A DNA stretch of 64,000 nt, taken from a candidate division WOR-3 bacterium. Its GTDB lineage: Bacteria; Hydrothermota; Tepidihabitantia; SM23-42; JAOAFX01. The notes below the pieces were generated by a model. The model made no database searches and was not told the origin of the DNA. It saw nothing but the letters and a program-made list of their open reading frames with translations. Within the stretch, counting starts at the first letter, position 1. Every line of letters begins with the position of its first letter. Below are positions 171 to 33,843 of the stretch, piece by piece. The DNA is taken from the NCBI GenBank assembly GCA_039802205.1, contig JBDRWD010000004.1:11229-75228 (forward strand), given 5' to 3'. The position numbers and the translations under genes were made by a program.

Positions 171-932
171 ATGGATTTAATACGGCAGCTATATCTAAAA
201 TTTCAAAAGAAAAAATTTAATAAGCCGTTTCATCCGGTGGGTGTTGCCCGGAAGGAAAGTTTTCTGATTGTGCCTTCGGAGAGAATAAAGGAATTTCTGG
301 GGTCGCTTTCATTTATTGCCGGGATGAGAAAGTTGGGTGAGGTGCTTTTGCTTTTGCCCGAAACTTTTGGTATTTACCTCGAGTCTTTCCGGGTTAACTT
401 CTTCCAGATTATTTATTACCGGCGAGCCCCCCAGATATTGACCAGGGAATTTAAAGAGCTAAAAAATCAACTTAGCAAAATATCCTGTCGGTGGCTCATT
501 GACCTTAACCCCGAGCCCAATCCTTCATTGCCGGTTTTGGTACCGGTAGAAAAAAGAGTAGCATTTTACAACCAAAAATCATTTCCCCTATACAATATCC
601 TCATCAAAGGTGGTTTGAAGGGAATGGTAGATTTTTTCCAAATACCTAATATTGATCCTGTTTCCCTTTTCCGGTTTCCTAAAACTGAATTACGGGCAGT
701 CGCCCGGGAATTGCCTGAAAAGAAACCTTTGTTATTTGCTAATCAAATCGAAAGCCTCAGTGAAGTATTAGACCATTTGTCTTGGCCCGGGAGCGTAGTA
801 GTAAGCAAAAAAAATAAAGATGAGATTACTCGCGACCTAAAGAAACTTTATCTATGTGATGCCTATTTCGGTCCTGATGACGAAATATGCGAATTTGCCC
901 GGATTTTTAAAAAAGAGATTTTTACCAAATGA
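171..932 (+). CDS. Hypothetical protein, first gene of the signalling operon.
   Basis: 253-aa ORF with no recognisable motif. Its stop overlaps the start of the downstream GGDEF gene (ATGA at 929-932), which indicates translational coupling. Confidence 0.5.
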   Translation: MDLIRQLYLKFQKKKFNKPFHPVGVARKESFLIVPSERIKEFLGSLSFIAGMRKLGEVLLLLPETFGIYLESFRVNFFQIIYYRRAPQILTREFKELKNQLSKISCRWLIDLNPEPNPSLPVLVPVEKRVAFYNQKSFPLYNILIKGGLKGMVDFFQIPNIDPVSLFRFPKTELRAVARELPEKKPLLFANQIESLSEVLDHLSWPGSVVVSKKNKDEITRDLKKLYLCDAYFGPDDEICEFARIFKKEIFTK

Positions 933-2767
933 CTGATATTGCCCGGCGGTTAGACAATCTCATATACAAATTGAGCACCATTCCGATGTATCAACTGGAT
1001 GTCATACAGCTTGCGGAGTTTTTGGCAACACATTTAGCAAGTAAAGGTTGTCTGCTGCTTGCAGGAAATCGGATATTATACCAGCATAACCTTACTCCTG
1101 AGGCAGTCTCAAAATTCCAAGAGAATTTGTTTGCTGAAGACCTGGAAGTGAATGGTGTAAGATACAGACTTTTTCTAAAATTTGAACCCCGGGAAAGATT
1201 GCCTATTTCCATTAGGCAAAAACTAAAAAATTTGTTGGCGCTTATCCAGCAGATTCTGGGGGTGAGTAATATTGCGCGGGAGAGAATCAGTGAATTCCAG
1301 ATTATTAACGAATTAAATCTGAATGTGATTACGACTCTGGAGTTGCATAAAGTGATATGGTTTGTAGAGATTGCCGCAAAAAAACTCCTTGAGACGGAAA
1401 AGGTTTATTTGTATTATGCAATTGAAGACCAATTGGTAGGAAGAGAAAAGCGTATCTCAGTGAAAGTGCTTCCTCCCGAGATATACCGACAACTTTCTCG
1501 GAGTCGACAAGTGATGAAGTTAGATAAAACTAAAAATGGTTTTCTAAAGTCCTTTTTGCCTACGCTGGCTTCGGGGATGGTTTTGCTGGTGCCTTTCACG
1601 ATTAAAAATCGGGGGCGTGGCTTCTTTTTACTCGATGAATTTGAGAAGATGCCAAACGAAATAAACACAATAATGCGCCTTAAATTTTTGGGTAATCAGG
1701 CGGCGATCGCACTAGAAAGGATTGAATTATTCCAGGCATTGAACAAGGCACTCCAGGAGAGCAGAGGTTTGCAGGAGATTGCTAAACTTCTCTTATCACC
1801 CTACGAGTTGAAACATTTCTTCACCGAAGTTCTGCGTCGCGCCCAACAGATTCTGGGGTTTAAGAAAATCATGTGTTCGATTTACAATCCCGAAACCGGG
1901 ACTTTTGAAAGGTTCCATGGAGTTGGCATATCATTGAAAAAATTCCGGGAGGCGAAAAAGGTTCATCCTCCATACCAAGTGATAAAAGGTATTATGCAGG
2001 ATCGCTTTCGGATTTCCAATTCATACTACATACCCAGCGAAGAGGTAATGGAAGAAATAAGGGAATACGAAGTATACAAATCCGCCCATCGGCAGCAAAG
2101 GGTTCATGACTTATGGGCACCGGGTGATATTTTGATTAGTCCGATTTATTCGCGGGCCGGCGAGATACTCGGTATCCTCTCGCTTGCCGAACCGGTAGAT
2201 AATCGGATTCCCGATCGCAACAAAATCCGGTTACTGGAGGCATTCGGTGATTTTTTAGGCTTGGCGATAGAGAATAACCAACTTTTTGAAAAAATTTTGA
2301 TTGTTTCTTATACCGATGAACTCACCGGGGTATATAACTACCGATTTTTGCGTGAGAAGTTGCAGGAATTGATTGCCCGATCCCCTAAATCAATTGCGTT
2401 AGCGATGATTGATCTTGATCGGTTTAAAGAATACAATGACCAACACGGACACCTCGCCGGCGATCAACTGCTCCGCAAGATTTCTCAGATATTGCGTGAT
2501 GTTATAAAGGATGGATATATTACTCGCTACGGGGGCGATGAGTTCATCATCATCTTACCCGCGGCCGGTGCCCGGGCTATGCGTTTTCGGATTGAACAGG
2601 TCCGGAAGATCATACAGGAGGGGAAATCTTTCAAACAATCCATCCGGTTCTCCTGTGGAATCGCCGTGTATCCGGAGGATGGCCAAGACTTTGGGACGCT
2701 GATTGATACGGCGGATAAGCGTCTTTATCTGGAAAAGAAGAAAAAATATGAGATGGCTGTTTCGTAA
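929..2767 (+). CDS. Diguanylate cyclase with GAF-like sensor domains (GAF-GGDEF).
   Basis: The C-terminal GGDEF domain has the intact active-site motif RYGGDEFIIIL. It is preceded by LTGVYNYRFL and DLDRFKEYNDQHGHLAGD, both typical of the GGDEF fold. The N-terminal ~400 aa are GAF-like. Confidence 0.9.
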   Translation: MTDIARRLDNLIYKLSTIPMYQLDVIQLAEFLATHLASKGCLLLAGNRILYQHNLTPEAVSKFQENLFAEDLEVNGVRYRLFLKFEPRERLPISIRQKLKNLLALIQQILGVSNIARERISEFQIINELNLNVITTLELHKVIWFVEIAAKKLLETEKVYLYYAIEDQLVGREKRISVKVLPPEIYRQLSRSRQVMKLDKTKNGFLKSFLPTLASGMVLLVPFTIKNRGRGFFLLDEFEKMPNEINTIMRLKFLGNQAAIALERIELFQALNKALQESRGLQEIAKLLLSPYELKHFFTEVLRRAQQILGFKKIMCSIYNPETGTFERFHGVGISLKKFREAKKVHPPYQVIKGIMQDRFRISNSYYIPSEEVMEEIREYEVYKSAHRQQRVHDLWAPGDILISPIYSRAGEILGILSLAEPVDNRIPDRNKIRLLEAFGDFLGLAIENNQLFEKILIVSYTDELTGVYNYRFLREKLQELIARSPKSIALAMIDLDRFKEYNDQHGHLAGDQLLRKISQILRDVIKDGYITRYGGDEFIIILPAAGARAMRFRIEQVRKIIQEGKSFKQSIRFSCGIAVYPEDGQDFGTLIDTADKRLYLEKKKKYEMAVS

Positions 2768-3926
2768 GAAAGAAAAAGTTAGTCTTTTACCGGAAACGAG
2801 TGGTTTTACTTCGCGTACCCTTGTTATCTACTTTTTAATCGGGATCGGTGTTATTGGTGTTGTCACTTATGCTTATTCCACATTTCTAATGGGACGTATT
2901 AAGAGGGAGACCGAGACGACATCCCGGATTTTTGCCAGTTATGCCTCAGGACCAGGTGCCAGCGAAGAGGAATTGCTGGCTTTACTTTTTCGGGAGGTGA
3001 TTGAAAAGATTGACTTTCCGGTCGTCTTAACCGATGCTCAGGGGCAACCGTATTCAGCAAAAAATGTACCTGAAAAAGATCTGGGTAAAATCGTTAAAAA
3101 ACTCGACCGGGAACATCGACCGATTCCGATAGTCATCCGGACAGGTTCGGATTCGACAATCGTCGGCTATGTTCATTATGGTTTATCACCGTTCACCCGC
3201 TCATTGAAGATCTTGCCTTTTTTAATGACCGCTTTTCTTTTGGCATTTCTTTTTCTGGGGTTCTGGGGGTATTTGATTTATCGGAAGAGCGAAGAGGAAA
3301 AGATATGGTATTCCCTTGCCAAGGAAACTGCCCATCAACTTGCCACCCCTCTTTCTTCTCTTACCGGCTGGCTGGAGACTTTAAAAAGAAATGTTACACC
3401 CGAAATCTTTGAGGGTATTGTTGAGGATACCCAGAGGATGAAAGAAGTGCTGGAAAAATTTTCCCGTATCGGTATGCCCCCGCGGCTGATTGAAAAGGAC
3501 CCGATACCGGTGATCCAGAAGGCGGTGAGTTATATCAAACGGCGTGCCCACACTCAAATTAAGTTCATTGAAAATTATCGGCCTCTGCCGCCTATTAAAT
3601 TTGATGACATTCTTCTCGGCTGGGCAATAGAAAACATCTTGAAGAATGGTCTTGATGCCATTGGTCCCAAGCCTGGGACCATTTCAATAAAAACCGAGGC
3701 TGATGACCATAATGCGATCATTGAAATTGCTGATACCGGACCGGGAATCAAACAGGCAAAGGATATCTTTAAACCTGGATATACCACCAAAAAATATGGC
3801 TGGGGATTGGGACTGGTTTTGACAAAACGGATTGTTGAAGAGTACCACAAGGGCAAACTCACTTTAAAAAAGACCGGTCCGGGAGGCACGACTTTTCAGA
3901 TTTATATCCCAGGGAGTGGAAAATGA
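2748..3926 (+). CDS. Sensor histidine kinase, PorY-like. Two transmembrane segments flank a periplasmic sensor.
   Basis: H-box AHQLATPLSSLTGW. The HATPase_c domain has the N box ENILKNGLDA, the G1 box IADTGPGI and the G2 box GWGLGLVL. Hydrophobic segments lie at roughly residues 25-45 and 185-205. The start was chosen at ATG 2748, which overlaps the GGDEF stop; the alternative start is ATG 2703. Confidence 0.85.
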   Translation: MRWLFRKKEKVSLLPETSGFTSRTLVIYFLIGIGVIGVVTYAYSTFLMGRIKRETETTSRIFASYASGPGASEEELLALLFREVIEKIDFPVVLTDAQGQPYSAKNVPEKDLGKIVKKLDREHRPIPIVIRTGSDSTIVGYVHYGLSPFTRSLKILPFLMTAFLLAFLFLGFWGYLIYRKSEEEKIWYSLAKETAHQLATPLSSLTGWLETLKRNVTPEIFEGIVEDTQRMKEVLEKFSRIGMPPRLIEKDPIPVIQKAVSYIKRRAHTQIKFIENYRPLPPIKFDDILLGWAIENILKNGLDAIGPKPGTISIKTEADDHNAIIEIADTGPGIKQAKDIFKPGYTTKKYGWGLGLVLTKRIVEEYHKGKLTLKKTGPGGTTFQIYIPGSGK

Positions 3927-5431
3927 AAATATTATGGATTGATGATGAGATTGAACTTTTAAAACCTTTTATCTATTTGCTCAATCAAGAGGGCTATGAG
4001 GTGAAGACCGCAACCAGCGGTGAGGATGGTATCCGATTAGCCAGTCGCGAGGTTTTTGATCTCATCTTTCTTGACGAAATAATGCCCGGGGTAGACGGTT
4101 TAGAGGTTCTGCGAAGAATAAAACTTGATAATCCCCAGCAACTGGTGGTGATGGTCACCAAAAGCGAAGAAGAGGCATTGATGAAACAGGCATACAGCGG
4201 CTGGGTTGATGATTACATAACCAAACCCTTCAGTTTTAATCAAATTCTTTCGGTGTTGAACCGGATCCTTAAAAGACGCCACTTGATTGAAGAAAAAATG
4301 GCGGAAGATTATGCGAGTCAATTTAATGTCCTTGCTGAGCCCGAAGATTATAATGGTTGGATTGAGTATTATCGCAATTTGGTATCCTGGGATTTGCGGT
4401 TTCTGGAATACGGGAGCAAGGAGTTGAAGGAGATTCATAATGAACGAAAGCGGAGCGCCAATGCGGGTTTTACCAAGTATATCGTCCACAACTATCCAGA
4501 TTTTATTAAAGGTCGCGGCCCGATTCTCTCTAACAGCCTGTTTAAGACCGTGGTTTTCCCCACACTCCAGGAAGGGAGCTTGTTTTTTGTGATATTTGAT
4601 TCCATGCGTCTTGATCAGTATTTAAAGCTCCAGCCTTACTTGCGTGATTTCTTTGAAATAAATACTCAATATTATTTTTCCATTCTCCCGTCTGCCACAC
4701 CCTATTCCCGCAATAGTATATTCGCCGGGCTTTTACCCCTGGAGATTTTACAAGGGTATCCCCAATACTGGTTGTTTGAAGAGAAAGGGCAGAACCGGTT
4801 CGAAAAAGAGTTGTTTACAGAATTGCTGAAACGAAATAGTCTGAAAATAAATTTCAACTTTTATAAATTGTCGACCATTGAAGAAATCGAGAGGAATGTT
4901 TCTAAAATCGCTCAGGACCGGAGTGATATTACCATCGTGATAATTAACTTTTTTGATCTTTTGCTCCATTCTATTCCAGGTCGGGGTGATATGAAAGGAT
5001 TGCTTGATGATGAACGGATCTTACTCAATCTTTTAAGTTACTGGTTTCCTGTTTCACCGCTTTTTGAACTATTCAAAGCCATTGCTACTAAAAAACGGCG
5101 GATCATTCTCACCAGCGACCACGGTTTTATTCATGTGCGCCGACCCACGGTGGTTTATGGAGGCCGGGAAATTTCTCCCAATCTACGTTATAAATACGGT
5201 CCCGCACTCCGGGTGGATGAAAAAACCGCTCTGGTTTTGAATAATCCCGGAGCATTTTATCTGCCCGCCGAAGATGCCTCGGTTCGGTTTATAATCGCCA
5301 AAGAAGATTACTATTTTATTTACCCTACCAAACCCACGGAATATGAGCGGGAATTCAAGTATACTTTTCAGCATGGAGGTATCTCACTGGAGGAGATGAT
5401 TCTGCCGATAGGCTTTTTGCTACCCCGATGA
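3923..5431 (+). CDS. Response regulator with a CheY-like receiver domain fused to a PglZ (alkaline-phosphatase superfamily) effector domain, PorX-like.
   Basis: The N-terminal REC domain has DDE...D54-like LIFLDEIMPG, T and K (VMVTKS...YITKPF). The C-terminal ~350 aa carry IFDSMR, a nucleophile-motif position typical of AP-superfamily and PglZ domains, and LTSDHGF, a metal-binding DHG motif. The 502-aa length matches PorX (about 518 aa). ATGA overlaps the kinase gene. Confidence 0.8.
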   Translation: MKILWIDDEIELLKPFIYLLNQEGYEVKTATSGEDGIRLASREVFDLIFLDEIMPGVDGLEVLRRIKLDNPQQLVVMVTKSEEEALMKQAYSGWVDDYITKPFSFNQILSVLNRILKRRHLIEEKMAEDYASQFNVLAEPEDYNGWIEYYRNLVSWDLRFLEYGSKELKEIHNERKRSANAGFTKYIVHNYPDFIKGRGPILSNSLFKTVVFPTLQEGSLFFVIFDSMRLDQYLKLQPYLRDFFEINTQYYFSILPSATPYSRNSIFAGLLPLEILQGYPQYWLFEEKGQNRFEKELFTELLKRNSLKINFNFYKLSTIEEIERNVSKIAQDRSDITIVIINFFDLLLHSIPGRGDMKGLLDDERILLNLLSYWFPVSPLFELFKAIATKKRRIILTSDHGFIHVRRPTVVYGGREISPNLRYKYGPALRVDEKTALVLNNPGAFYLPAEDASVRFIIAKEDYYFIYPTKPTEYEREFKYTFQHGGISLEEMILPIGFLLPR

Positions 5432-5439
5432 GAGAAAAC

Positions 5440-5467
5440 TTGACAGGGAAAAGTTTTGCATTATAAT
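5440..5467 (+). promoter_or_regulatory. Sigma70-like promoter for the Hsp20 gene.
   Basis: TTGACA (5440-5445), a 16-nt spacer, then TATAAT (5462-5467). The ATG at 5473 lies only 5 nt after the -10 element, so the transcript is probably leaderless. Confidence 0.45.
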
Positions 5468-5472
5468 TTATC

Positions 5473-5916
5473 ATGAAAAATACCCGAGCGCGCGGCATGG
5501 AAAAACTGGAGGTTGCTGAAATAAAAGTGGTATTGAGGTCATTGGATGAAAGCATCGAAGAATCTGAGAGTGTGGAGCTGATTAACTGGGAACCATCTTA
5601 CGACTTATATATAGTGGATGAAACAATTTTCATCAGCATTGAACTACCGGGTGTGGAATTAAAAGATATCACCATCAATGTCGGTCAGAATTACATGATC
5701 GTGTCGGGCGTCAAACGTCCTTTGATTGTAAGACAACCTGGATATCGGAATGTAGTTTTTCACAACCTGGAAATTTCCTACGGTCGGTTTTTCCGGCGGA
5801 TTGATTTTCCATTACCGGTGGAGGCAAAAGACGGGGATTATAAGTTAGAAAGAGGCGTTTTGACGATAAAATTTCCGGTGTTAAAAGAACATATCATACC
5901 TATTGAGGAGGCTTAA
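5473..5916 (+). CDS. Hsp20 / alpha-crystallin family small heat-shock protein.
   Basis: The alpha-crystallin domain is present: YDLYIVDETIFISIELPGV...GVLTIKFP. There is an I-x-I-like C-terminal IIPI. Confidence 0.85.
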   Translation: MKNTRARGMEKLEVAEIKVVLRSLDESIEESESVELINWEPSYDLYIVDETIFISIELPGVELKDITINVGQNYMIVSGVKRPLIVRQPGYRNVVFHNLEISYGRFFRRIDFPLPVEAKDGDYKLERGVLTIKFPVLKEHIIPIEEA

Positions 5917-12253: not shown

Positions 12254-15200
12254 ATGGGATTGCTTTTGGTTGCATTAATTGTCGTTAATGAATCCTGTCT
12301 GGTTGCCTACCAGAGTGGAACATACACACCGCCTTATCTTCCTGAATATGACTACATTGCTATCGCGGGTTACTATTTTAACCCACGGGAAAGATTACCG
12401 GAAATTCCGGTCGAGCTCACTGGCGAATCCGATTACTACTTGATCCACATAAAAGGACCGGTCTATGAAGATATGAAGAAAACAATTGAAGCTCAGGGAG
12501 TGAAGCTCATTCAGTATATTCCGTTCAATGCCTTTATTGCACGGATGGATAGGAGTAAAAAGGATTTGGTTGAAGGGCTCTCTTTTGTGAACTGGATAGG
12601 GAATTATGAGCCTGCTTACAAAATCAGCACCTTATTCAAAGAATTGCCCGATGAAGATGAATGGCTTGTATTTCCATTCCCGGATGAGAACATTTATCTT
12701 TTAAAGCGCAAACTCGAAAACCTTGGTTGTAAAATCTTGGAGATTTCTGATGATGATTATTGTCGGGTGATTAAAATCCAGTCCGAGCGGAATCATCTTA
12801 ATACGATTGCCCGGATGACAGAGGTGATGTATATTGAACCATATCTCCAACCCGTTGCCTATAATCAATCGGCTCAGTGGGTGACCCAGACCTGGAAGCA
12901 AGTAGATAGGAGAATCTGGCGCAAAAACCTGATGGGTCAAGGACAGGTGGTGAACACTGCGGATACAGGAATACTCACTTCCCATGATATGTTCCGGGAC
13001 CCTGCCGTTTCAATCACAACCTGGGGGAATTATCCCACCCACCGCAAGATCATTGCCTATCTCCAACCCACGGGTTCCTCGGCGGCATTTGGTGATAATG
13101 CAGGCGGTAGCTGGCATGGGACTCACACTGCCGGAACCATTTGTGGCGACGATTCCTATGTCAATGGGACAAATCCGAATGATGGAATGCCATTGAAGGC
13201 AAAGATGTTCTTTATGGATATTGGAACATCTACTGGTTCTCTTTCGGTTCCATCAAACCTTGCCAATCTCTACCTTCCACCTTACAATGGTAATGCCGGT
13301 GGTGCTGCACGAATTTCTTCACATTCCTGGGGTTCCACGAGTGGTGCGGGTTCTTATACTTCATATTGCGTTACCACTGACTCCTTTATGTGGCGGAACA
13401 GGGACTTCTTAATCTGTTATGCTGCAGGGAATAGTGGACCGGGGTCAAATACAGTTTACCCACCCGGAACATCCAAAAATATTCTTACCGTCGGTGCGAC
13501 CATGAATAGCACCGCGGCAATTTATATGGCAGATTTTTCAAGCCGTGGTCCCACTGCTGATAACCGGATAAAACCCACTGTCACAGCACCGGGATATTTC
13601 CTCTTTTCATCGGTAGGACCTAATAATAATTCCTATCTGGGAATGGCAGGAACAAGCATGGCAACACCATGTGCTGCAGGCAACGCCGCGATTGTCAGAC
13701 AATACTTTGCTAAGGGATTTTATCCTTCTGGTGATTCAAACCCAGCAAATGCTTGGAGTTTCATTCCTGCTTCTCTGGTGAAGGCAATCATCATAAACGG
13801 TGCTCATCCTTCAATCGCAGGTTCAACCATTCCGGATAATAACACCGGCTGGGGTAGGGTCTGTCTTGATGATGCACTCTTCTTCAGCGGTGATGTGCGT
13901 AAACTCTGGGTAACCTATGATAGCGTTGCTACGGGTCAGTTTGATGAATTTACCATCACGGTGAACAATCAATCTGAACCTTTAAAAATCACGCTGGTCT
14001 GGACTGATTATCCGGCTACAGCAGGAGCGAGTGTGACGTTGGTAAATAATCTTGATCTACGAGTTACCAGTCCCACCGGTACAGTCTATCTGGGAAATGT
14101 CTATAGCGGTGGTCAATCTGCACCGGGTGGTTCTGCTGATAACCGGAATGTTGAAGAATGTGTGCGTCGGAATGTCCCTGAGATTGGTAACTGGGTGATC
14201 AGGGTAACAGGAACGAATGTACCCCAGGGAACAAACCAGCCTTATGCCTTAGTTGTTTCGGGTGGTCTTGGTCCAACTACGAGTCCTGTCCTTCATATTG
14301 CGGGTCAGCGAATTTACGATCCTCCTCCTGGTGGAAATTTCAATGGTCGGTGTGATGCAGGAGAGACGGTATATCTCATTGATACACTCCGAAATCTCTC
14401 CAATGTGGGGGTGACCAATTGTGTGGGTGTTTTAAGAAAAACAAGTTCTTATATCACTTTAATCGACTCTGTAGGAAACTTTGGAGACATTGCTGTTGGT
14501 GGCACAGCCCATAATGGTGGTTCTCCATTCCGGTTTTCCATATCTTCAACGACACCCGCAGGAACCTTTGTGGACTTTATTCTGCATCTCACCGGTGGCG
14601 GTGGCTATGTGCAGGATATTGAATTCAGCCTTGAGGTCGGGATCAACGAAGTCCATGTAATCTGGGGTCCCAAGACCGTCCAGGTAGCACCGGGTGATAC
14701 CCACTTCCTTTATGGTTTAGGCTATAATCCACAAAACAACCGGCTTTATGTTTGCAACTTCTACCGCCGGACTACCGGGATTGTGATGTACACTTCGGAC
14801 AGCAATGTTACCTATCTGGGTACAATTCCTGCTCCGGATTCCTGCCCAACCGATATTAAATATTGTGCTTATGATAACACCTTCTGGGTGGCGGCTGATC
14901 CGAATCCTACCGCGCCGAGTAGGATAATTTATAAAATCAACACCAGTGGCACGGTTTTGAGACAATTTGCCAATCCCGCAAATGATTATCCAACAGGGCT
15001 TGCCTGGATGCCAACATCAAGGTGGTTATATGCGGCAGACCGCAGAACATCGGCTGGTGCGACACCAATAATTTATCGTTGCGATACCCTGGGTGGAAAT
15101 GTTTCATCAGTCAATCTGACAATCGGTGATAACTATGGACCCAGGGGACTGGCGATAGAGCCTTATGGCCCTGATACAACGCTGTTACTTGTGTATACAC

Positions 15201-15727
15201 ATTTCAGTAGTGATGCAACTCCAGTACTACTTAAGATTGTACTGTATGAGCTGCGTAGAAGTGATGGTGCAGTTTTAAACTCAGTTACCCTACCGGGCTG
15301 GAATGTCCGTGGTGTGGAGTATGACCCACGCGATGGTAATTACTGGTTGACGATTGCTCAAAACCCCAACCGGGCGATTGTTAAAATACTCGGCTTCCGT
15401 GGTATTCCAGGAGTGGGTATTGATGAAGAACTGCAACCAGGACCGCTTGAGAAGATAAGCCTTTCCCCTGGTATGCCGACGCCCTTCAAAAATACCGTGA
15501 AATTCAATTATTCGGTGCCGGTCAAGATGAGAGTGCGACTTGCGGTTTACGATATCACAGGAAGACATGTTAAGACATTTGTGAACGGTGAGGTGGAGCC
15601 GGGTACCCAGACAATAATTTGGAATGGAATGGACGAGAATAATAAACGGTGTGCGAGTGGTGTCTATCTCTGCTACATGGAGACAGAACATGGTTCCGTT
15701 GTCCGGAAGTTCGTGATGTCGAAATAA
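12254..15727 (+). CDS. S8 subtilisin-family serine peptidase with a T9SS C-terminal sorting domain (secreted cargo).
   Basis: The Asp/His/Ser triad is present: VVNTADTG, SWHGTHTAG, GTSMATPCAAG. The C-terminal roughly 80 aa are a Por_Secre_tail-like domain (PTPFKNT...LAVYDITGRHV...WNGMDENN...SGVYLCYM). RBS AAAGGAGGA. Confidence 0.9.
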   Translation: MGLLLVALIVVNESCLVAYQSGTYTPPYLPEYDYIAIAGYYFNPRERLPEIPVELTGESDYYLIHIKGPVYEDMKKTIEAQGVKLIQYIPFNAFIARMDRSKKDLVEGLSFVNWIGNYEPAYKISTLFKELPDEDEWLVFPFPDENIYLLKRKLENLGCKILEISDDDYCRVIKIQSERNHLNTIARMTEVMYIEPYLQPVAYNQSAQWVTQTWKQVDRRIWRKNLMGQGQVVNTADTGILTSHDMFRDPAVSITTWGNYPTHRKIIAYLQPTGSSAAFGDNAGGSWHGTHTAGTICGDDSYVNGTNPNDGMPLKAKMFFMDIGTSTGSLSVPSNLANLYLPPYNGNAGGAARISSHSWGSTSGAGSYTSYCVTTDSFMWRNRDFLICYAAGNSGPGSNTVYPPGTSKNILTVGATMNSTAAIYMADFSSRGPTADNRIKPTVTAPGYFLFSSVGPNNNSYLGMAGTSMATPCAAGNAAIVRQYFAKGFYPSGDSNPANAWSFIPASLVKAIIINGAHPSIAGSTIPDNNTGWGRVCLDDALFFSGDVRKLWVTYDSVATGQFDEFTITVNNQSEPLKITLVWTDYPATAGASVTLVNNLDLRVTSPTGTVYLGNVYSGGQSAPGGSADNRNVEECVRRNVPEIGNWVIRVTGTNVPQGTNQPYALVVSGGLGPTTSPVLHIAGQRIYDPPPGGNFNGRCDAGETVYLIDTLRNLSNVGVTNCVGVLRKTSSYITLIDSVGNFGDIAVGGTAHNGGSPFRFSISSTTPAGTFVDFILHLTGGGGYVQDIEFSLEVGINEVHVIWGPKTVQVAPGDTHFLYGLGYNPQNNRLYVCNFYRRTTGIVMYTSDSNVTYLGTIPAPDSCPTDIKYCAYDNTFWVAADPNPTAPSRIIYKINTSGTVLRQFANPANDYPTGLAWMPTSRWLYAADRRTSAGATPIIYRCDTLGGNVSSVNLTIGDNYGPRGLAIEPYGPDTTLLLVYTHFSSDATPVLLKIVLYELRRSDGAVLNSVTLPGWNVRGVEYDPRDGNYWLTIAQNPNRAIVKILGFRGIPGVGIDEELQPGPLEKISLSPGMPTPFKNTVKFNYSVPVKMRVRLAVYDITGRHVKTFVNGEVEPGTQTIIWNGMDENNKRCASGVYLCYMETEHGSVVRKFVMSK

Positions 15728-15735
15728 CCTAAAGA

Positions 15736-15765
15736 GCGGGGCTCGGATTTAAATCCGAGCCCCGC
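15736..15765. terminator. Perfect 30-nt palindromic hairpin between the S8 and C25 genes.
   Basis: GCGGGGCTCGGATTT|AAATCCGAGCCCCGC is a perfect inverted repeat. There is no strong U-tract, so the hairpin could function in either direction. Confidence 0.5.
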
Positions 15766-15781
15766 ACATAAAGGGGTAAAT

Positions 15782-18700
15782 ATGATTAAAATAAAAATCT
15801 TGGCACCATTGTTAATCCTACCGTCACTTATTTTTTCACTACACATAACTGTTCCGGTGGACCAACTCAATTATACAATTTCTGATTTTGAAGGATACAA
15901 AAAAATCTGTTTGGAAAATGGTGTAACAGTCGGAAATCCGGGGAGCCCGGAGATTCCTTCTTTTGTTTATACCCTATTTTTACCTACCAATCAAAAGATT
16001 AAAAATGTGAATATCGCTGCCGCCGAATGGGAAGAAATTGCTGGCGAGTATCTCTTATTTCCAGTACAGCCTCCAGCACTCCTCAATGGACCATTGAAAT
16101 TTTTTGGTCCGGATTCCGAGATTTACCAGTATCCCGGATTTTATCCAGAAAATCTGGTTATTGCTTTTCATTCCGGGAATCTTCGGGGGTATCACCTCGG
16201 GCAAATTTTAATTGCCCCTTTTAGATATGAGCCAATAACAAAAAAACTCTATGTTCTCAGGAAATTGGTTTTAGATATTGAGACCGAACCTTATGCTGGA
16301 GGGATAAAGCCATATCGGCAGACAAGGTTTTCCCAGAAGATATTTGAGAATATACTCCAAACTATGTCCCAATTTAAATTTTTGGGAGGGACTATCCATC
16401 ACCCAGAGGTATCGATTGAAGATAATACGGAAGATCTGTTACCTTCTGATTTACCATCTTTTTCAGGGACTCCATTAGACTTAATTATAGTCACGACTGA
16501 ACCCTTTGTTCCAGTTTACGAAGAATTTCTGCGTTATAAAAAACTATTCGGGTTTAATGGTGTAATCAAGACAATGGAATGGATCAGGAATCATTATTTG
16601 GGAGTGGATGATGCAGAGAAATTGCGCAATTTTATCAGAGATGCGGTAGAAAAATGGGGGGTGAGTTTTGTTTTACTGGGCAATGATGTGCCAGATATTC
16701 CTACCCGCTGGGTATGGGTGGATTATGTGATGGGATCGTATCCGGCTCATTTCACCACCGACCTTTATTATTCCGACCTTGATGGCAACTGGAATTTTGA
16801 TGGCGATGAACAGTTTGGAGAGGTCTCGGATTCCATTGATCTTTATCCTGATGTCTTTGTAGGAAGAATTCCTGCCCATGTTCCAGATGATGTGGAGCAT
16901 TATCTCAACAAGACCCTTTCCTATCTTTTTGCTCTCCAGACGCCTCCCAATTCTAACGAATCCTGGCAGCGTCAGGCATTATTTGTCACAAGTATGTTCT
17001 GGTCTCAGAATGACTCTTATTATATCGCCCGTAATCAATTGAGTCCCCTCTTACCTGGCAATTTTGGAAGAAATTTTTTTAACGAAAGCTCAAAACAACA
17101 GATCCTTCGGGGCATAAAAGAAGGTTACAATCTTATTACTTGGCTTGCCCATGGTGATGTTAACCTTTTGCGAGCAAGGACAACTCCTCGAGAATATGTC
17201 TCCAATTTTGATTTTGACTCTTTGGCTAATAACATCTATCCATTTATGGTGGTCATCTCTTGCTTTACCGGACCATTCCAGGAAGATTGCCTGGGCGAGC
17301 ACTGGGTGATGAATTCCCATGGTGGCGGTATTGGATACATTGGGCCAACTAGTTCCAGTGCAGCTTATAATCATATCGATTATATAAGGACTCTATTCCC
17401 CAATCTTTTTTCTGAACCCCTCAGTGTCTCCCTAGCTTTTAGCAAGATCCCGTGGATTCCCTATGCTCAGTTTGATAACTGGCATCGGGTATTTCAGTAT
17501 TCGCTTAATTTACTTGGAGACCCAACTTTGAAATTATGGTCGGTGGTGCCACATCGGATAGATTCGGTTTTGGTAGACCCGGACACCTTAAATGTAGGAT
17601 ATGATACCTTGACTTTACATATCTTCCCCATGATTGAAAGATTTGAGGTAGTATACTACAAGGAAAATGAAGTATTTTTAAAAGATTCAGGTTTTGTCGG
17701 TATTGCGGTAACCCCTCTGCGCACCCGTTCAACAGGTTTTTTGAAATACACGATAATTGCCGATGGCTGTGTGCCTTATATTGATTCTTTATATGTGCTG
17801 CCATTATCCGGTTACCTTGTCTACCAGGGGCAGCGGGTTGTGGATACTCTTGGGAATGGTGATGGTATTCCCAATCCAGGAGAGATTATTGATCTTTTCA
17901 TTGGTTTGCGTAATACAGGCACTCAGCCTTTGGATTCAGTTTTTTTGCGGATTGCTTCTTTGGATAGTTTTGTTACTATTCTGGTGGATACGGCGCGGTA
18001 TGGCGTTATCATGCCGGGTGGGGTGGAGGAGAATCTCACGCCTTTACGGATTGCGATAGGTCCTTGGACGCCGGATGGATATGAGGTTTATTTGGCTTTG
18101 GATATTGGTGGTTTTTATTCTGATTCCTGTAGTTTTACGGTTGAAGCACCGGTGTTAAGGCTCTTTACCCAGGATTATATTTTGGATGGCGGAGTTTATA
18201 AGGTTTTGCCGGTTGTTGAGAATTGCGGAAGTGGTGATGCGGATTCGGTTTATGCATTGGTCAGGAGTTATTCGGATACAGTGGTAGTTTTGGACAGTCT
18301 GGTTTATTTTGGAGGAGTGAGTTCGGGTCATGTTGTTTCTGCACGAGATACTTTTCGTTTAATGTTGAATTATCCGGGTCGGGTTGTTTATAGTTTTGCG
18401 CTTTACAGTCGGGGTTGGCAGGCTGAAGAACGGCAGGTGGTTTTGGGTAGGCCTATGCGGGTGGATTCGCTTTGGGCGTTTGGTACTCCTAATTCTGTTG
18501 TTTTGAATTGGGTTATGGTTTCTGGTGCGGTTGGCTATAGGATATATCGGGCGTTGGAACCGAATGGTGATTTTGAGTATATTGGGAATCCCCTTACGCG
18601 GGTGAGTTATTATGAGGATTTGGGAGTGGAGTTGGGGCGGGATTATTATTATTATGTGGTGGCCGTGGATTCTTCGTTGAATCAGGGATATGCTTCGGAT

Positions 18701-20320
18701 ACGATAAAGGCGCGGGTTAATCCTGCGGTGGCTTTGGGTTGGCCACGGATGGTTTTTGGTTACTTATTTTCTTCACCCAATTTTGGTGATTTGGATCCGG
18801 ATTATCCGGGATTGGAGGTGGTGGTTTCTTCGCGGAATGGGGATGTTTACATGTGGCATTGTGATGGCACGCCGGTGGGTATAGATCCATATGGGCGAAT
18901 ATTTTCTTGTAATTCCGAGATTTGGTCTTCGCCGGCGGTGGGCGATGTGGACAGGGATGGCAATTTAGAGATCTGTCTTGGGATAAGGCGGTGGGGAGAG
19001 AATCTTTATATTTTGCGGAGATCCGGAATTAGTTGGATTCCTATGGATAATTGGCCCAAGAGTCTTGATGGTTCGATAATTGGTTCACCAGTATTAGCGG
19101 ATATTGATAATGATGAAGATTTAGAGGTATTTGTTATAACAGAGGCTGGAAGGTTCTATGTATTTCATCATACAGGTGAAGGTGTTTATTCCCCAGATGG
19201 AATATTAAAAGTTTTATATGGGTGGCATGGAGGCTCGCCAGCGGTGGGTGATTTAAATAACGATGGGGATTTAGAGATAGTTGCATGTGGTGGTTCACAA
19301 TCAGACTCTTTATTTATTTGGGATCGTCATGGTAATTATTTTGGTGTCTTTCCTAAGCAGGTGGCGGCAAAGATGTGTTATTCGCCGGTTTTGGGTGATG
19401 TGATTGGGGATGGTTCGCTGGAGATTTGTTTTTATACGGATTCTACAGACATGGTCCATCTGTTAGATATGAATGGGAATTTGGTATGGCAGAGATATAT
19501 CCCGGCGTTGGGTGATGTTGAGGGGTACCCGGTGCTCGCGAATGTGGTTGGGGATGGGCGTCCAGAGGTGGTTGTGGGCAGCAATCGGGGTTCGATGTTT
19601 CTTTCGGTGTTAGATTCGTTGGGTAATATAGTTTCAGGTTTTCCGGTTTCGTTGGGTTGGGAGTTTAAGTTACCAGTGGTTGGAGATGTGGATGGTGATG
19701 GTATGATGGATTTGGTTTGTGGAGCTGGTGATTGGAATTTGTATGCGTTTCATAGTAATGGTGGGTTGGTTAGTGGTTATCCAATTCATTTTGGTATTCG
19801 GATTGAACAATCGCCGGCACTTTACGATATTGATCAGGATGGTAAGTTGGAGTTGATGATTGGCGCGAATGATTATCGATTTTGGGTTTTTGATTTAGAT
19901 GGGCAGTTTTTCGAATGGCCTAAGTTTCGTTATGATCCTTATAATTCGGGTTGTTATAAGTCGCTTTACTGGGCGAATGTTGGAGAAGTTATTACAAAGA
20001 GCGGTGGTGATAGATTTTATTTTGGGGTCTATCCCAATCCTTTTAAGGATCGTTGTGTGATCCGTTTAAAGATTCCGAGCAGCAAGTTGGTTGGTCAAAA
20101 CAGGGAGGCGGTTAAAGATTTTAGCCTTGTGGTTTATGATGTTTTGGGACGTCAGGTGAGGATGTTTAATCTGGATCCTGCAAGGCTGGATCAAATATCA
20201 GACATTATCTGGGATGGTTCGGATAATCTGGGCCGGAAATTACCATCGGGAATTTATTTTGTTCGTCTGAAAGTGGGTCAGTTGAATGTGATCAGGAAAG
20301 CAATTCTTTTGAATCATTGA
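15782..20320 (+). CDS. Peptidase C25 (gingipain-like) family protein with FG-GAP/VCBS repeats and a T9SS C-terminal domain.
   Basis: Features of the C25 catalytic domain are present: LLGNDVPDIPTRW, FTTDLYYSDLDGNWN, DVFVGRIP, the His candidate in TWLAHGD, and the Cys candidate in VVISCFTGP. At least 7 FG-GAP repeats of the pattern SP.LGD.D.DG.LE follow. The C-terminal domain ends NPFKDR...VVYDVLGRQV...SGIYFVRL. There is a signal peptide. Confidence 0.75.
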   Translation: MIKIKILAPLLILPSLIFSLHITVPVDQLNYTISDFEGYKKICLENGVTVGNPGSPEIPSFVYTLFLPTNQKIKNVNIAAAEWEEIAGEYLLFPVQPPALLNGPLKFFGPDSEIYQYPGFYPENLVIAFHSGNLRGYHLGQILIAPFRYEPITKKLYVLRKLVLDIETEPYAGGIKPYRQTRFSQKIFENILQTMSQFKFLGGTIHHPEVSIEDNTEDLLPSDLPSFSGTPLDLIIVTTEPFVPVYEEFLRYKKLFGFNGVIKTMEWIRNHYLGVDDAEKLRNFIRDAVEKWGVSFVLLGNDVPDIPTRWVWVDYVMGSYPAHFTTDLYYSDLDGNWNFDGDEQFGEVSDSIDLYPDVFVGRIPAHVPDDVEHYLNKTLSYLFALQTPPNSNESWQRQALFVTSMFWSQNDSYYIARNQLSPLLPGNFGRNFFNESSKQQILRGIKEGYNLITWLAHGDVNLLRARTTPREYVSNFDFDSLANNIYPFMVVISCFTGPFQEDCLGEHWVMNSHGGGIGYIGPTSSSAAYNHIDYIRTLFPNLFSEPLSVSLAFSKIPWIPYAQFDNWHRVFQYSLNLLGDPTLKLWSVVPHRIDSVLVDPDTLNVGYDTLTLHIFPMIERFEVVYYKENEVFLKDSGFVGIAVTPLRTRSTGFLKYTIIADGCVPYIDSLYVLPLSGYLVYQGQRVVDTLGNGDGIPNPGEIIDLFIGLRNTGTQPLDSVFLRIASLDSFVTILVDTARYGVIMPGGVEENLTPLRIAIGPWTPDGYEVYLALDIGGFYSDSCSFTVEAPVLRLFTQDYILDGGVYKVLPVVENCGSGDADSVYALVRSYSDTVVVLDSLVYFGGVSSGHVVSARDTFRLMLNYPGRVVYSFALYSRGWQAEERQVVLGRPMRVDSLWAFGTPNSVVLNWVMVSGAVGYRIYRALEPNGDFEYIGNPLTRVSYYEDLGVELGRDYYYYVVAVDSSLNQGYASDTIKARVNPAVALGWPRMVFGYLFSSPNFGDLDPDYPGLEVVVSSRNGDVYMWHCDGTPVGIDPYGRIFSCNSEIWSSPAVGDVDRDGNLEICLGIRRWGENLYILRRSGISWIPMDNWPKSLDGSIIGSPVLADIDNDEDLEVFVITEAGRFYVFHHTGEGVYSPDGILKVLYGWHGGSPAVGDLNNDGDLEIVACGGSQSDSLFIWDRHGNYFGVFPKQVAAKMCYSPVLGDVIGDGSLEICFYTDSTDMVHLLDMNGNLVWQRYIPALGDVEGYPVLANVVGDGRPEVVVGSNRGSMFLSVLDSLGNIVSGFPVSLGWEFKLPVVGDVDGDGMMDLVCGAGDWNLYAFHSNGGLVSGYPIHFGIRIEQSPALYDIDQDGKLELMIGANDYRFWVFDLDGQFFEWPKFRYDPYNSGCYKSLYWANVGEVITKSGGDRFYFGVYPNPFKDRCVIRLKIPSSKLVGQNREAVKDFSLVVYDVLGRQVRMFNLDPARLDQISDIIWDGSDNLGRKLPSGIYFVRLKVGQLNVIRKAILLNH

Positions 20321-20414
20321 CAGGATGAAGAAAAAAAATATAATTGGGAGATGAAAGGGGGTGAGAAAAATAAAAAACATGAGAGAAAATAATTATCAAA
20401 AGAAAGGAGTGGCT

Positions 20415-24992: not shown

Positions 24993-24996
24993 AGGC

Positions 24997-25033
24997 AAAT
25001 GGGGCAGGGTTTCACCCTGCCCCATTTTGTTTT
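24997..25033 (+). terminator. Rho-independent terminator after the S8 paralog.
   Basis: AATGGGGCAGGG-tttca-CCCTGCCCCATT stem followed by TTGTTTT. Confidence 0.7.
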
Positions 25034-25052
25034 CCAAACCGGAGGTGTTGAA

Positions 25053-27656: not shown

Positions 27657-27658
27657 CT

Positions 27659-29578: not shown

Positions 29579-29617
29579 AATGACCTCCTTATTCTTAACC
29601 TGGTTTATAATCATCGT

Positions 29618-32044: not shown

Positions 32045-32074
32045 ATTACACCCCTTTTTATTTTTGTCCATTTT

Positions 32075-33745: not shown

Positions 33746-33762
33746 AGCAATCCTCCAGCAAA

Positions 33763-33791
33763 ATCATATACCACAATAAATCCTTTGTCAA
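33763..33791 (-). promoter_or_regulatory. Sigma70-like promoter for the 32075-33745 S8 gene.
   Basis: On the minus strand: TTGACA (33786-33791), a 17-nt spacer, then TATGAT (33763-33768). The RBS GGAGGA follows. Confidence 0.45.
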
Positions 33792-33843
33792 GACCCCATA
33801 CTATCATTAACTTCCATTCAGCGCTGTCTGGTATTTCTCAATA

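What the first reader, a model, noticed from the sequence alone, without database searches (positions are those of the whole stretch)
3923..5431. REC-PglZ effector shows AP-superfamily catalytic signatures
Beyond the receiver domain, the protein has IFDSMR (a Ser/Thr nucleophile position) and TSDHGF (a DHG metal ligand), both characteristic of alkaline-phosphatase-fold phosphodiesterases. This suggests the effector output is enzymatic rather than DNA binding, as proposed for PorX.
Basis: partly seen in the sequence, partly recalled or inferred. Interest (0 to 1): 0.55.

Follow-up and report, generated by a model that had tools for sequence, protein, structure and literature searches.

The report
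PorX-type secretion regulator with intact enzyme site

Summary
[quoted passage not shown] It matches the crystal structures of P. gingivalis and F. johnsoniae PorX at E about 1e-105. It scores 530 bits against NCBI's PorX equivalog model (cut-off 300). NCBI already annotates the identical protein in a candidate division WOR-3 MAG.

All seven PorX metal or nucleophile residues are present: D226, T259, D345, H349, D399, H400 and H484. They are invariant in 87 family members from about ten FCB lineages, and they align with E. coli BREX-1 PglZ.

Its Asp (D226) is a zinc ligand, while Ser227 is a variable position (N/C/S). The true nucleophile is T259, in LPSATPY.

An enzymatic phosphodiesterase output is well supported by homology, though activity was not assayed here.

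Modestly new: porX is not an orphan here. A histidine kinase gene overlaps its start, as in 14 of 80 genome loci, none of them Bacteroidota. In this WOR-3 clade a GAF-GGDEF cyclase sits just upstream.

The parts
3923..5431 (+). porX orthologue, 502 aa: receiver domain, three-helix bundle and PglZ/alkaline-phosphatase-superfamily phosphodiesterase domain
   Evidence: ORF. Pfam REC + PglZ. PDB PorX hits at E about 1e-105 over residues 2-501. NCBIfam NF052313 T9SS_RR_PorX, 529.9 bits against a cut-off of 300. 100% identical to an NCBI WOR-3 MAG protein.
3929..4258 (+). Receiver (CheY-like) domain, residues 3-112. Phospho-acceptor D51 (nt 4073-4075), acidic pocket D7/D8, T79, Y98, K101
   Evidence: Pfam. 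The residues align with PorX_Pg D14/D15/D58/T86/Y105/K108. They are invariant in 87 sequences, except that Y98 is Y or F.
4235..4504 (+). Central three-helix bundle, residues about 105-194
   Evidence: AF2 model helices 105-134, 143-163 and 166-194. This matches the helical bundle domain described for PorX (PMC9757075, PMC10951265).
4520..5428 (+). PglZ / alkaline-phosphatase-superfamily catalytic domain, residues about 200-502
   Evidence: Pfam PglZ. Foldseek hits to PorX, Acinetobacter BREX PglZ 9zn5_B and phosphonoacetate hydrolase 1ei6.
4598..4600 (+).
   Evidence: Aligns with PorX_Pg D239 / PorX_Fj D237. Invariant 87/87. Aligns with D482 of E. coli BREX-1 PglZ.
4697..4699 (+). T259, catalytic nucleophile and zinc ligand, in LPSATPY
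   Evidence: Aligns with PorX_Pg T272 / PorX_Fj T271; the T272A and T271V mutants are inactive. Invariant 87/87. Aligns with BREX-1 T517, equivalent to E. fergusonii T538.
4955..4969 (+). D345 and H349, zinc ligands (Zn1), in NFFDLLLHS. N342 (nt 4946-4948) and R263 (nt 4709-4711) take the place of the third-metal site of true alkaline phosphatases
   Evidence: Align with PorX_Pg D361/H365, N358 and R276. All invariant 87/87.
5117..5122 (+).
   Evidence: Align with PorX_Pg D415/H416. Invariant. Align with BREX-1 D640/H641 in TADHGF.
5372..5374 (+). H484, zinc ligand (Zn1), in FQHGG
   Evidence: Aligns with PorX_Pg H500 / PorX_Fj H499. Invariant. Aligns with BREX-1 H720, equivalent to E. fergusonii H741.
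2748..3926 (+). Sensor histidine kinase, presumed cognate kinase. 392 aa from the ATG at 2748 (the ORF opens at a TTG at 2703). Two TM segments (about 20-48 and 151-178), H-box His196, HisKA + HATPase_c. Its stop overlaps the porX start (ATGA)
   Evidence: Pfam. Hydropathy scan, H-box and junction sequences. Orthologous kinases sit immediately upstream of porX in WOR-3, Eisenbacteria, Latescibacterota, Zixibacteria and some Ignavibacteriota.
929..2767 (+). GAF-GGDEF protein (612 aa), a probable diguanylate cyclase with an intact RYGGDEF motif and no RxxD I-site. It overlaps its neighbours on both sides
   Evidence: Pfam GGDEF E 5.5e-36. Motif. Same position in WOR-3 loci L004/L005, L006, L088 and L090; absent in L001, L007, L089 and L091.
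171..932 (+). WOR-3-specific ORF of 253 aa and unknown function, possibly the first gene of the unit. Its stop overlaps the GGDEF start (ATGA)
   Evidence: No Pfam or NCBIfam hit. Only 15 homologues. Conserved between clpX and the GGDEF or kinase gene. Weak GT-B-like fold.
5440..5467 (+). Perfect sigma-70 consensus promoter (TTGACA-16-TATAAT), 9 nt after the porX stop. It marks the start of a separate hsp20-lon unit
   Evidence: 12/12 match. Hsp20. The Lon assignment rests on the translation; no family search was run on it.
40773..46214 (+). SprA/Sov, the T9SS outer-membrane translocon. It shows that the organism has the secretion system PorX is associated with
   Evidence: TIGR04189, 322.7 bits against a cut-off of 200. 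Pfam SprA_N.
12254..35190 (.). Cluster of eight large secreted proteins. Seven carry a Por_Secre_tail T9SS C-terminal sorting domain (the first, at 12254-15727, has only an FlgD_ig hit at its C-terminus). They include S8, C25 gingipain-like, M28 and S15 peptidases
   Evidence: Pfam Por_Secre_tail hits.

Best explanation
The gene encodes the PorX orthologue of a candidate division WOR-3 bacterium that has a type IX secretion system.

Shown here by sequence:
- An intact CheY-like receiver (D7, D8, D51, T79, Y98, K101).
- A three-helix bundle.
- A PglZ domain of the alkaline-phosphatase superfamily with the complete PorX two-zinc site. D345/H349/H484 form one site and D226/D399/H400 plus the nucleophile T259 form the other.
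- R263 and N342 where true alkaline phosphatases bind a third metal.

Inferred from the characterised P. gingivalis and F. johnsoniae proteins:
- The membrane histidine kinase encoded immediately upstream, with a 4-nt overlap, phosphorylates D51.
- Phosphorylation, and zinc, drive formation of an intertwined dimer.
- The dimer switches on a zinc-dependent phosphodiesterase (not monoesterase) activity that cuts linear di- and oligonucleotides (pGpG, pApA, pApG) and cyclic oligoadenylates to NMPs through a phospho-threonine intermediate.
- The phosphorylated receiver also contacts the T9SS motor protein (PorL/GldL) and/or a sigma factor, tuning secretion of the many CTD-tagged proteases encoded nearby.
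For: - Full-length phmmer hits to all five PorX PDB sequences, E 1.7e-105 to 4.5e-104, covering residues 2-501.
- NCBIfam equivalog NF052313 T9SS_RR_PorX: 529.9 bits against a cut-off of 300, profile positions 2-511 of 513.
- The AF2 model (pLDDT 80.4) has PorX structures as its 17 best PDB matches (E about 1e-46, TM 0.66-0.69). Further down are Acinetobacter BREX PglZ (rank 23) and phosphonoacetate hydrolase (rank 29).
- Residue numbering of the rebuilt PorX sequences was checked against the published residue lists.
- All 7 catalytic residues, R263/N342 and the receiver residues are invariant in the 18-sequence alignment and in 87 non-identical family members.
- T9SS is present in the window: SprA and seven Por_Secre_tail cargo proteins.
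- The kinase gene overlaps the porX start, and this pairing recurs in 14 of 80 genome loci.
- Published biochemistry for the family: PMC9757075, PMC10951265, PMC11320123.
Against: - No activity, metal content, phosphotransfer or dimerisation was measured for this protein. Everything about mechanism is transferred from orthologues that are 37-39% identical.
- Base-contacting residues of the PorX_Pg-pGpG complex are not conserved (K305->Q290, L307->R292, Y332->S317), and the loop carrying them is 2 residues shorter, so substrate preference may differ.
- The PglZ dimer-interface serines S385/S389 are N369/Y373 here. In PorX_Pg, bulky substitutions (S385E/S389E) abolished dimerisation, so the interface may pack differently.
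- PorL/GldL and SigP homologues were not looked for, and none was seen in the window.
- Orthology of the upstream kinase to PorY could not be tested.
Confidence: 0.92

Rival explanations
1. The phosphodiesterase belongs to a c-di-GMP pathway. The co-transcribed GAF-GGDEF cyclase makes c-di-GMP and PorX clears its linear breakdown product pGpG. The operon (unknown ORF, GGDEF, kinase, PorX) would then couple dinucleotide turnover to secretion. This refines the main explanation rather than replacing it.
For: The GAF-GGDEF gene overlaps both neighbours and has an intact GGDEF motif. The same gene order is found in WOR-3 relatives whose PorX is 81%, 78%, 76% and 66% identical. PorX_Pg binds pGpG in its active site and cleaves it to GMP (PMC9757075).
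Against: The GGDEF gene is missing from the same position in four other WOR-3 loci at 72-74% identity, from the loci at about 50% identity, and from all other phyla sampled. PorX_Pg does not cleave c-di-GMP itself, so another enzyme would have to linearise it. No EAL or HD-GYP gene was seen in the window. GGDEF genes are abundant, and one also lies downstream on the other strand in L004, so adjacency alone is weak evidence. The guanine-contacting residues of PorX_Pg are not conserved here.
Confidence: 0.25
2. The PglZ domain is a phage-defence (BREX-type) component, not a secretion regulator.
For: The domain is homologous to BREX PglZ: NCBIfam BREX_PglZ_3 E 5.8e-19 over residues 139-496; PADLOC PglZ models E 2.9e-13; hhalign to E. 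coli BREX-1 PglZ at 90-91% probability; Foldseek hit to Acinetobacter BREX PglZ.
Against: The BREX model scores 67.8 bits against a cut-off of 250, whereas the PorX model passes. The N-terminus is a receiver domain, not the BREX N-terminal region. No brxC, pglX, brxL or brxA/B domain appears among the ORFs scanned across the 64-kb window. The neighbours are a histidine kinase and housekeeping genes, and this holds across phyla.
Confidence: 0.02
3. The catalytic domain is physiologically irrelevant. The protein signals only through protein-protein contacts of its phosphorylated receiver, and the enzyme site is a conserved relic or a zinc sensor.
For: [quoted passage not shown] PorX has also been proposed as a cellular zinc sensor (PMC11320123).
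Against: The nucleophile and two phosphate-binding residues are invariant in 87/87 sequences across about ten phylum-level lineages, not just the metal ligands. That pattern points to selection on catalysis, not only on metal binding.
Confidence: 0.1
4. It is a classical alkaline phosphatase (phosphomonoesterase) fused to a receiver, as the NCBI product name suggests.
For: NCBI names it 'bifunctional response regulator/alkaline phosphatase family protein'. The fold and two-metal site belong to the AP superfamily.
Against: PorX_Pg has phosphodiesterase but not monophosphatase activity (PMC9757075, section heading). The third-metal site of true APs is replaced by R276/N358 in PorX_Pg, which correspond to invariant R263/N342 here. 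[quoted passage not shown]
Confidence: 0.04

Closest known systems
PorX of Porphyromonas gingivalis (PGN_1019; PDB 7PV7, 7PVA, 7PVK) and PorXFj of Flavobacterium johnsoniae (Fjoh_2906; PDB 8P6F, 8TED and others)
   Same: Same three-domain architecture and nearly the same length (502 against about 518 aa). Identity is 37-39% over the full length. All receiver active-site residues are identical, as are all seven zinc or nucleophile residues and the R/N pair that binds the second phosphate. It is also encoded in a T9SS-bearing FCB-group genome.
   Different: The host is candidate division WOR-3, not Bacteroidota. The gene is not an orphan: a histidine kinase gene overlaps its start, with a GAF-GGDEF gene upstream. 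Nucleobase-contacting residues differ (Q290, R292, S317 in place of K305, L307, Y332), and their loop is 2 residues shorter. The PglZ dimer-interface serines are replaced by N369/Y373. The residue after the first Asp ligand is Ser rather than Asn.
BREX PglZ (E. coli HS BREX-1 PglZ type A; E. fergusonii PglZ; Acinetobacter PglZ, PDB 9zn5_B)
   Same: The helical bundle plus PglZ domain is homologous. The aligned catalytic positions are D482, T517, D596, D640, H641 and H720 in E. coli HS. T517 and H720 correspond to E. fergusonii T538 and H741, which are required for metal-dependent nuclease or phosphodiesterase activity.
   Different: There is no receiver domain in BREX PglZ and no BREX neighbours here. 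The sequence scores far below the BREX model cut-offs. H349 aligns with an Asp (D600) in BREX-1 type A, in a low-confidence part of the alignment. BREX PglZ also has N- and C-terminal extensions.
Nucleotide pyrophosphatase/phosphodiesterases (ENPP family) and phosphonoacetate hydrolase PhnA of the alkaline-phosphatase superfamily
   Same: They share the alpha/beta/alpha core, a two-zinc site built from Asp/His ligands, and a Thr nucleophile. PhnA (1ei6) is a structural hit to the model (E 3.4e-8).
   Different: Sequence identity is only 12-13%. These enzymes are not regulated by a fused receiver, and their cap subdomain and substrate cleft differ.

Membership tests
PorX (T9SS response regulator, NCBIfam NF052313) | Full-length match to the curated equivalog model above its cut-off | tested here: met
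   529.9 bits against a cut-off of 300; residues 2-500 match profile positions 2-511 of 513.
PorX (T9SS response regulator, NCBIfam NF052313) | N-terminal CheY-like receiver with phospho-acceptor Asp, acidic pocket, switch Thr and Tyr/Phe, and conserved Lys | tested here: met
   D7, D8, D51, T79, Y98 and K101 align with PorX_Pg D14, D15, D58, T86, Y105 and K108.
PorX (T9SS response regulator, NCBIfam NF052313) | Central three-helix bundle between the receiver and the PglZ domain | tested here: met
   AF2 model helices 105-134, 143-163 and 166-194. The alignment to the PorX structures is continuous through this region.
PorX (T9SS response regulator, NCBIfam NF052313) | PglZ domain with seven metal or nucleophile residues (Pg D239, T272, D361, H365, D415, H416, H500) | tested here: met
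   D226, T259, D345, H349, D399, H400 and H484. Invariant in 87/87 sequences.
PorX (T9SS response regulator, NCBIfam NF052313) | Occurs in an organism with a type IX secretion system | tested here: met
   SprA/Sov matches TIGR04189 at 322.7 bits against a cut-off of 200. Seven proteins carry Por_Secre_tail domains.
PorX (T9SS response regulator, NCBIfam NF052313) | Zinc-dependent phosphodiesterase activity on bis-pNPP and on linear or cyclic oligonucleotides | not testable with these tools
   This needs purified protein. It is inferred only from the conserved residues.
PorX (T9SS response regulator, NCBIfam NF052313) | Phosphorylation- or zinc-induced dimerisation, and binding to PorL/GldL and SigP | not testable with these tools
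   The receiver dimer-interface residues M87, D97 and I122 are conserved, but the PglZ interface residues differ (N369, Y373).
BREX PglZ | Score above the cut-off of a BREX PglZ model | tested here: not met
   The best is BREX_PglZ_3 at 67.8 bits against a cut-off of 250.
BREX PglZ | Encoded in a BREX cluster (brxC, pglX and others) | tested here: not met
   No such domains appear in the ORFs scanned across the window or in related loci.
Alkaline-phosphatase superfamily (fold level) | Alpha/beta/alpha core with a bimetal Asp/His site and a Ser/Thr nucleophile | tested here: met
   Homology to the PorX crystal structures. Foldseek hits to PhnA and BREX PglZ. Residue mapping.
Classical alkaline phosphatase (monoesterase) | Third (Mg) metal site and a Ser nucleophile in a D-S motif | tested here: not met
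   The nucleophile is Thr259. The position of the third-metal site is occupied by R263/N342, as in PorX_Pg (R276/N358). The DS dipeptide in IFDSMR lies at the first-ligand position, and its Ser is variable.

The most novel reading that the evidence does not exclude
In non-Bacteroidota FCB phyla (WOR-3, Zixibacteria, Latescibacterota, Eisenbacteria, some Ignavibacteriota), porX keeps an ancestral operon with its cognate sensor kinase. In one WOR-3 clade the operon also holds a GAF-GGDEF diguanylate cyclase. If this linkage is functional, it identifies the true partner kinase family of PorX, whose pairing with PorY is still questioned in P. gingivalis. It also points to pGpG or other c-di-GMP-derived nucleotides as the long-sought in vivo substrate, linking dinucleotide signalling to type IX secretion.
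Probability: 0.25. Interest if true: 0.5.

Novelty: new member of a known kind. Interest (0 to 1): 0.2.

Why it matters
PorX's alkaline-phosphatase-type active site, its phosphodiesterase activity and its kinship with BREX PglZ have been published with crystal structures (2022-2024), and this very protein is already annotated in NCBI.

The useful outcomes are these:
- A corrected residue assignment: nucleophile T259 and first ligand D226.
- Evidence that the complete catalytic and phospho-acceptor machinery is invariant across about ten FCB lineages.
- The observation that outside Bacteroidota porX is frequently co-operonic with a specific histidine kinase, and in this WOR-3 clade with a GGDEF cyclase.

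The last point offers a genomic handle on two open questions in the PorX field: which kinase activates PorX, and what the enzyme domain acts on in vivo.

Tried and rejected
- BREX/phage-defence membership was rejected. The sequence scores below the model cut-offs and has no BREX neighbours.
- The Ser227-as-nucleophile assignment was rejected by alignment to two crystallised PorX proteins and by its N/C/S variability.
- Orthology of the upstream kinase to PorY could not be tested, because no PorY sequence was available. A PDB search with the kinase gave only generic hits (ZraS, KinB, NtrB), and NCBIfam gave only generic sub-threshold hits.
It was redone with A2.
- The first E. coli HS fetch failed because the range was one base too long.
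- The default hhalign run aligned only the N-terminal half of the PglZ domain to BREX-1 PglZ. A greedier run (mact 0.01) extended it through the DHG and HGG motifs, but the D345/H349 region is aligned at low confidence.
- Literature searches for T9SS or PorX in WOR-3 and other candidate phyla found nothing relevant.
- The GC-skew spike at 18-20 kb is only G/V/D-rich FG-GAP repeats.
- The 253-aa upstream ORF gave only a weak GT-B-like fold match: pLDDT 69.9, TM at most 0.38.
Full report
**Observation**

The ORF at 3923..5431 on the + strand is real and encodes 502 aa. Pfam finds a receiver domain at residues 3-112 (E 1.7e-23) and a PglZ domain at 221-408 (E 3e-12). Short motifs like these mean little alone. 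What excludes chance is full-length homology.

**Identity**

- A phmmer search of all PDB chains returns the five distinct PorX sequences as top hits. F. johnsoniae PorX (8TED, 8P6F, 8THP) scores E 1.7e-105 to 9e-105. P. gingivalis PorX (7PV7, 7PVK) scores E 9.5e-105 and 4.5e-104. The matches cover residues 2-501, and every other hit matches the receiver only.
- NCBI's curated equivalog model NF052313, 'T9SS response regulator signal transducer PorX', scores 529.9 bits against a cut-off of 300 over the whole protein.
- The identical sequence is already in NCBI as 'MAG: bifunctional response regulator/alkaline phosphatase family protein [candidate division WOR-3 bacterium]'. There are dozens of WOR-3 relatives at 60-90% identity, and a 49% relative is named PorX.
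- An AlphaFold2 model built on 20 homologues has mean pLDDT 80.4. It shows a receiver, three long helices (105-134, 143-163, 166-194) and an alpha/beta catalytic domain.
- The 17 best PDB matches to that model are PorX chains (E about 1e-46, TM 0.66-0.69). Further down are Acinetobacter BREX PglZ (9zn5_B, rank 23, E 2.2e-8) and phosphonoacetate hydrolase (1ei6, rank 29), an alkaline-phosphatase-superfamily enzyme.

**Catalytic residues**

The published metal and nucleophile residues are as follows. For PorX_Pg they are D239, T272, D361, H365, D415, H416 and H500 (PMC9757075). For PorX_Fj they are D237, T271, D360, H364, D414, H415 and H499 (PMC10951265; PMC11320123).

I rebuilt both PorX sequences from the HMMER alignments. 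I then checked that the published numbers land on the stated residue types. In an 18-sequence MAFFT alignment the query equivalents are D226, T259, D345, H349, D399, H400 and H484, all in invariant columns. The same is true of R263 and N342, which correspond to Pg R276 and N358. Those two hold the second phosphate where true alkaline phosphatases bind a third metal.

I extended this to 87 non-identical family members taken from genome loci of WOR-3, Eisenbacteria, Zixibacteria, Latescibacterota, Ignavibacteriota, Cloacimonadota, Balneolales, KSB1 and Bacteroidota. All nine positions, and the receiver residues D7, D8, D51, T79 and K101, are invariant in 87/87.

TSDHGF does contain two zinc ligands, D399 and H400. 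In IFDSMR, however, the functional residue is the Asp (D226, a zinc ligand). Ser227 aligns with Asn in both crystallised PorX proteins and is N (40), C (39) or S (8) across the family. It cannot be the conserved nucleophile.

The nucleophile is T259 in LPSATPY. It aligns with T272/T271, whose Ala and Val mutants are the published inactive forms. The substitution is visible directly in the 8THP and 7PVK sequences, and 8THP is titled a 'phosphatase null mutant (T271V)'. From my own knowledge, the 'DS' probably recalled the D101-S102 nucleophile motif of E. coli alkaline phosphatase. Here the dipeptide sits at the position equivalent to AP D51.

I fetched the BREX-1 PglZ of E. coli HS (865 aa) and aligned it with the PorX profile using hhalign.

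- The default run (91% probability) aligned the helical bundle, the first Asp and the nucleophile.
- A greedier run extended the alignment to the end of the domain.
- The equivalents are D482, T517, D596, D600 (opposite H349, at low confidence), D640/H641 in TADHGF, and H720 in FVHGG.
- T517 and H720 are offset by exactly 21 from E. fergusonii T538 and H741. Those are the residues that paper superposes on PorX T272 and H500, and it shows they are needed for metal-dependent nuclease and phosphodiesterase activity (PMC12205998).

The protein is nevertheless not a BREX component. The best BREX model scores 67.8 bits against a cut-off of 250. No BREX partner genes occur in the window or in related loci.

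**Context**

The window belongs to a T9SS organism. It encodes SprA/Sov (40773..46214; TIGR04189 at 322.7 bits against a cut-off of 200). It also holds a run of large secreted peptidases, seven of which carry Por_Secre_tail sorting domains: S8, C25 gingipain-like, M28 and S15 (12254..35190).

Immediately upstream of porX lies a sensor histidine kinase:
- It runs from 2748 to 3926 and is 392 aa from the ATG.
- It has two TM segments, H-box His196, and HisKA plus HATPase_c domains.
- Its stop overlaps the porX start codon (ATGA).

Upstream of the kinase is a GAF-GGDEF protein with an intact GGDEF motif (929..2767). Upstream of that is a 253-aa WOR-3-specific ORF (171..932). Each overlaps the next gene. 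A perfect TTGACA-16-TATAAT promoter at 5440-5467 follows the porX stop. It precedes an Hsp20-family gene and then an ORF that looks like Lon from its translation, so porX ends its transcription unit.

**Conservation of the context**

In P. gingivalis, porX and porY are described as orphans (PMC4800418; PMC11320123). Among 80 genome loci holding a PorX relative, a kinase orthologous to the one here lies just upstream on the same strand in 14. Its catalytic core matches at E 1e-40 to 1e-101, whereas unrelated kinases in the same loci score 1e-8 to 1e-17. The breakdown is below.

| Lineage | Loci with the upstream kinase |
|---|---|
| Zixibacteria | 3 of 3 |
| Latescibacterota | 3 of 3 |
| Eisenbacteria | 3 of 3 with enough upstream sequence |
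| WOR-3 | 2 of 3 |
| Ignavibacteriota | 2 of 8 |
| A contig labelled Limnocylindria | 1 of 1 |
| Bacteroidota | 0 of 35 |
| Cloacimonadota | 0 of 3 |
| Balneolales | 0 of 3 |

The additional WOR-3 contigs fetched by exact protein look-up all have the kinase. The order tig-clpP-clpX, 250-aa ORF, GAF-GGDEF, kinase, porX is shared by WOR-3 relatives whose PorX is 81, 78, 76 and 66% identical. Four others, at 72-74% identity, have the same order without the GGDEF gene. Relatives at about 50% identity keep only the kinase-porX pair.

**Mechanism**

What is shown here is an intact receiver, an intact two-zinc phosphodiesterase site with a Thr nucleophile, translational coupling to a membrane kinase, and a T9SS host.

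What is inferred from the characterised orthologues is the following:
- The kinase phosphorylates D51.
- Phosphorylation and zinc promote an intertwined dimer.
- The dimer activates a diesterase, not a monoesterase. It cleaves pGpG, pApA, pApG and cyclic oligoadenylates, but not c-di-GMP (PMC9757075).
- The phospho-receiver binds GldL/PorL (PMC10951265).

**Differences that may matter**

- The nucleobase contacts seen in the PorX_Pg-pGpG complex are not conserved (K305->Q290, L307->R292, Y332->S317).
- The loop carrying them is two residues shorter and is modelled with low confidence.
- The PglZ dimer-interface serines are N369 and Y373 here.

**Verdict**

This is a new, uncharacterised member of a well-characterised family, and the sequence is already annotated in public databases. 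The only mildly novel points are the non-orphan kinase-porX operon outside Bacteroidota and the clade-specific GGDEF linkage. The GGDEF linkage gives a testable but weakly supported hint that PorX's in vivo substrate is related to c-di-GMP turnover.

Noticed in passing
window 2748-3926 (+), and loci L001-L008, L010, L017, L019, L028, L029, L037, L044, L061, L062, L068, L075, L083: porX is not an orphan here. An orthologous sensor kinase lies immediately upstream, often overlapping, in WOR-3, Zixibacteria, Latescibacterota, Eisenbacteria and some Ignavibacteriota. It is upstream in 0 of 35 Bacteroidota loci. The literature treats PorX and PorY as orphans.
   Followed up: partly
window 929-2767 (+); L004/L005 4983-6860; L006 5012-6868; L088 3172-4863; L090 2359-4863: A GAF-GGDEF diguanylate-cyclase gene is wedged between a conserved unknown ORF and the kinase-porX pair in part of the WOR-3 clade, with overlapping gene ends. 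PorX_Pg is known to bind and cleave pGpG.
   Followed up: partly
window 171-932 (+): A 253-aa ORF has no Pfam or NCBIfam hit and only 15 homologues; every one that carries a taxon name is WOR-3 or unclassified 'bacterium'. It always lies between clpX and the GGDEF or kinase gene. The AF2 model (pLDDT 69.9) weakly resembles GT-B glycosyltransferases such as GT9 heptosyltransferase (TM at most 0.38), so its function is unresolved.
   Followed up: partly
window 5440-5467 (+): A perfect 12/12 sigma-70 consensus promoter (TTGACA-16-TATAAT) lies 9 nt after the porX stop and 5 nt before the first ATG of the hsp20 ORF. Either the transcript is nearly leaderless or the real start is the Met at 5497.
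   Followed up: no
window 12254-35190 and 40773-46214: A dense cluster of very large secreted peptidases (S8, C25 gingipain-like with FG-GAP repeats, M28, S15), most with T9SS sorting domains, lies near the SprA translocon gene in a WOR-3 genome. The literature search found no paper that mentions both WOR-3 and type IX secretion.
   Followed up: no
window 8260-9303 and 9300-10583 (+): Two adjacent, overlapping genes encode GWxTD-domain proteins downstream of lon. Their function is unknown.
   Followed up: no
window 3923-5431, residues 369 and 373: The PglZ dimer-interface positions that are Ser in PorX_Pg are Asn and Tyr in this WOR-3 clade; in PorX_Pg, S385E/S389E abolishes dimerisation. Across 87 sequences position 373 is S in 56, T in 13, A in 8 and Y in only 4. 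The dimer interface may therefore differ.
   Followed up: no
window 18001-20000: A strong GC-skew and AT-skew spike turned out to be the G/V/D-rich FG-GAP repeat region of the C25 peptidase ORF. No tandem DNA repeat was found.
   Followed up: yes
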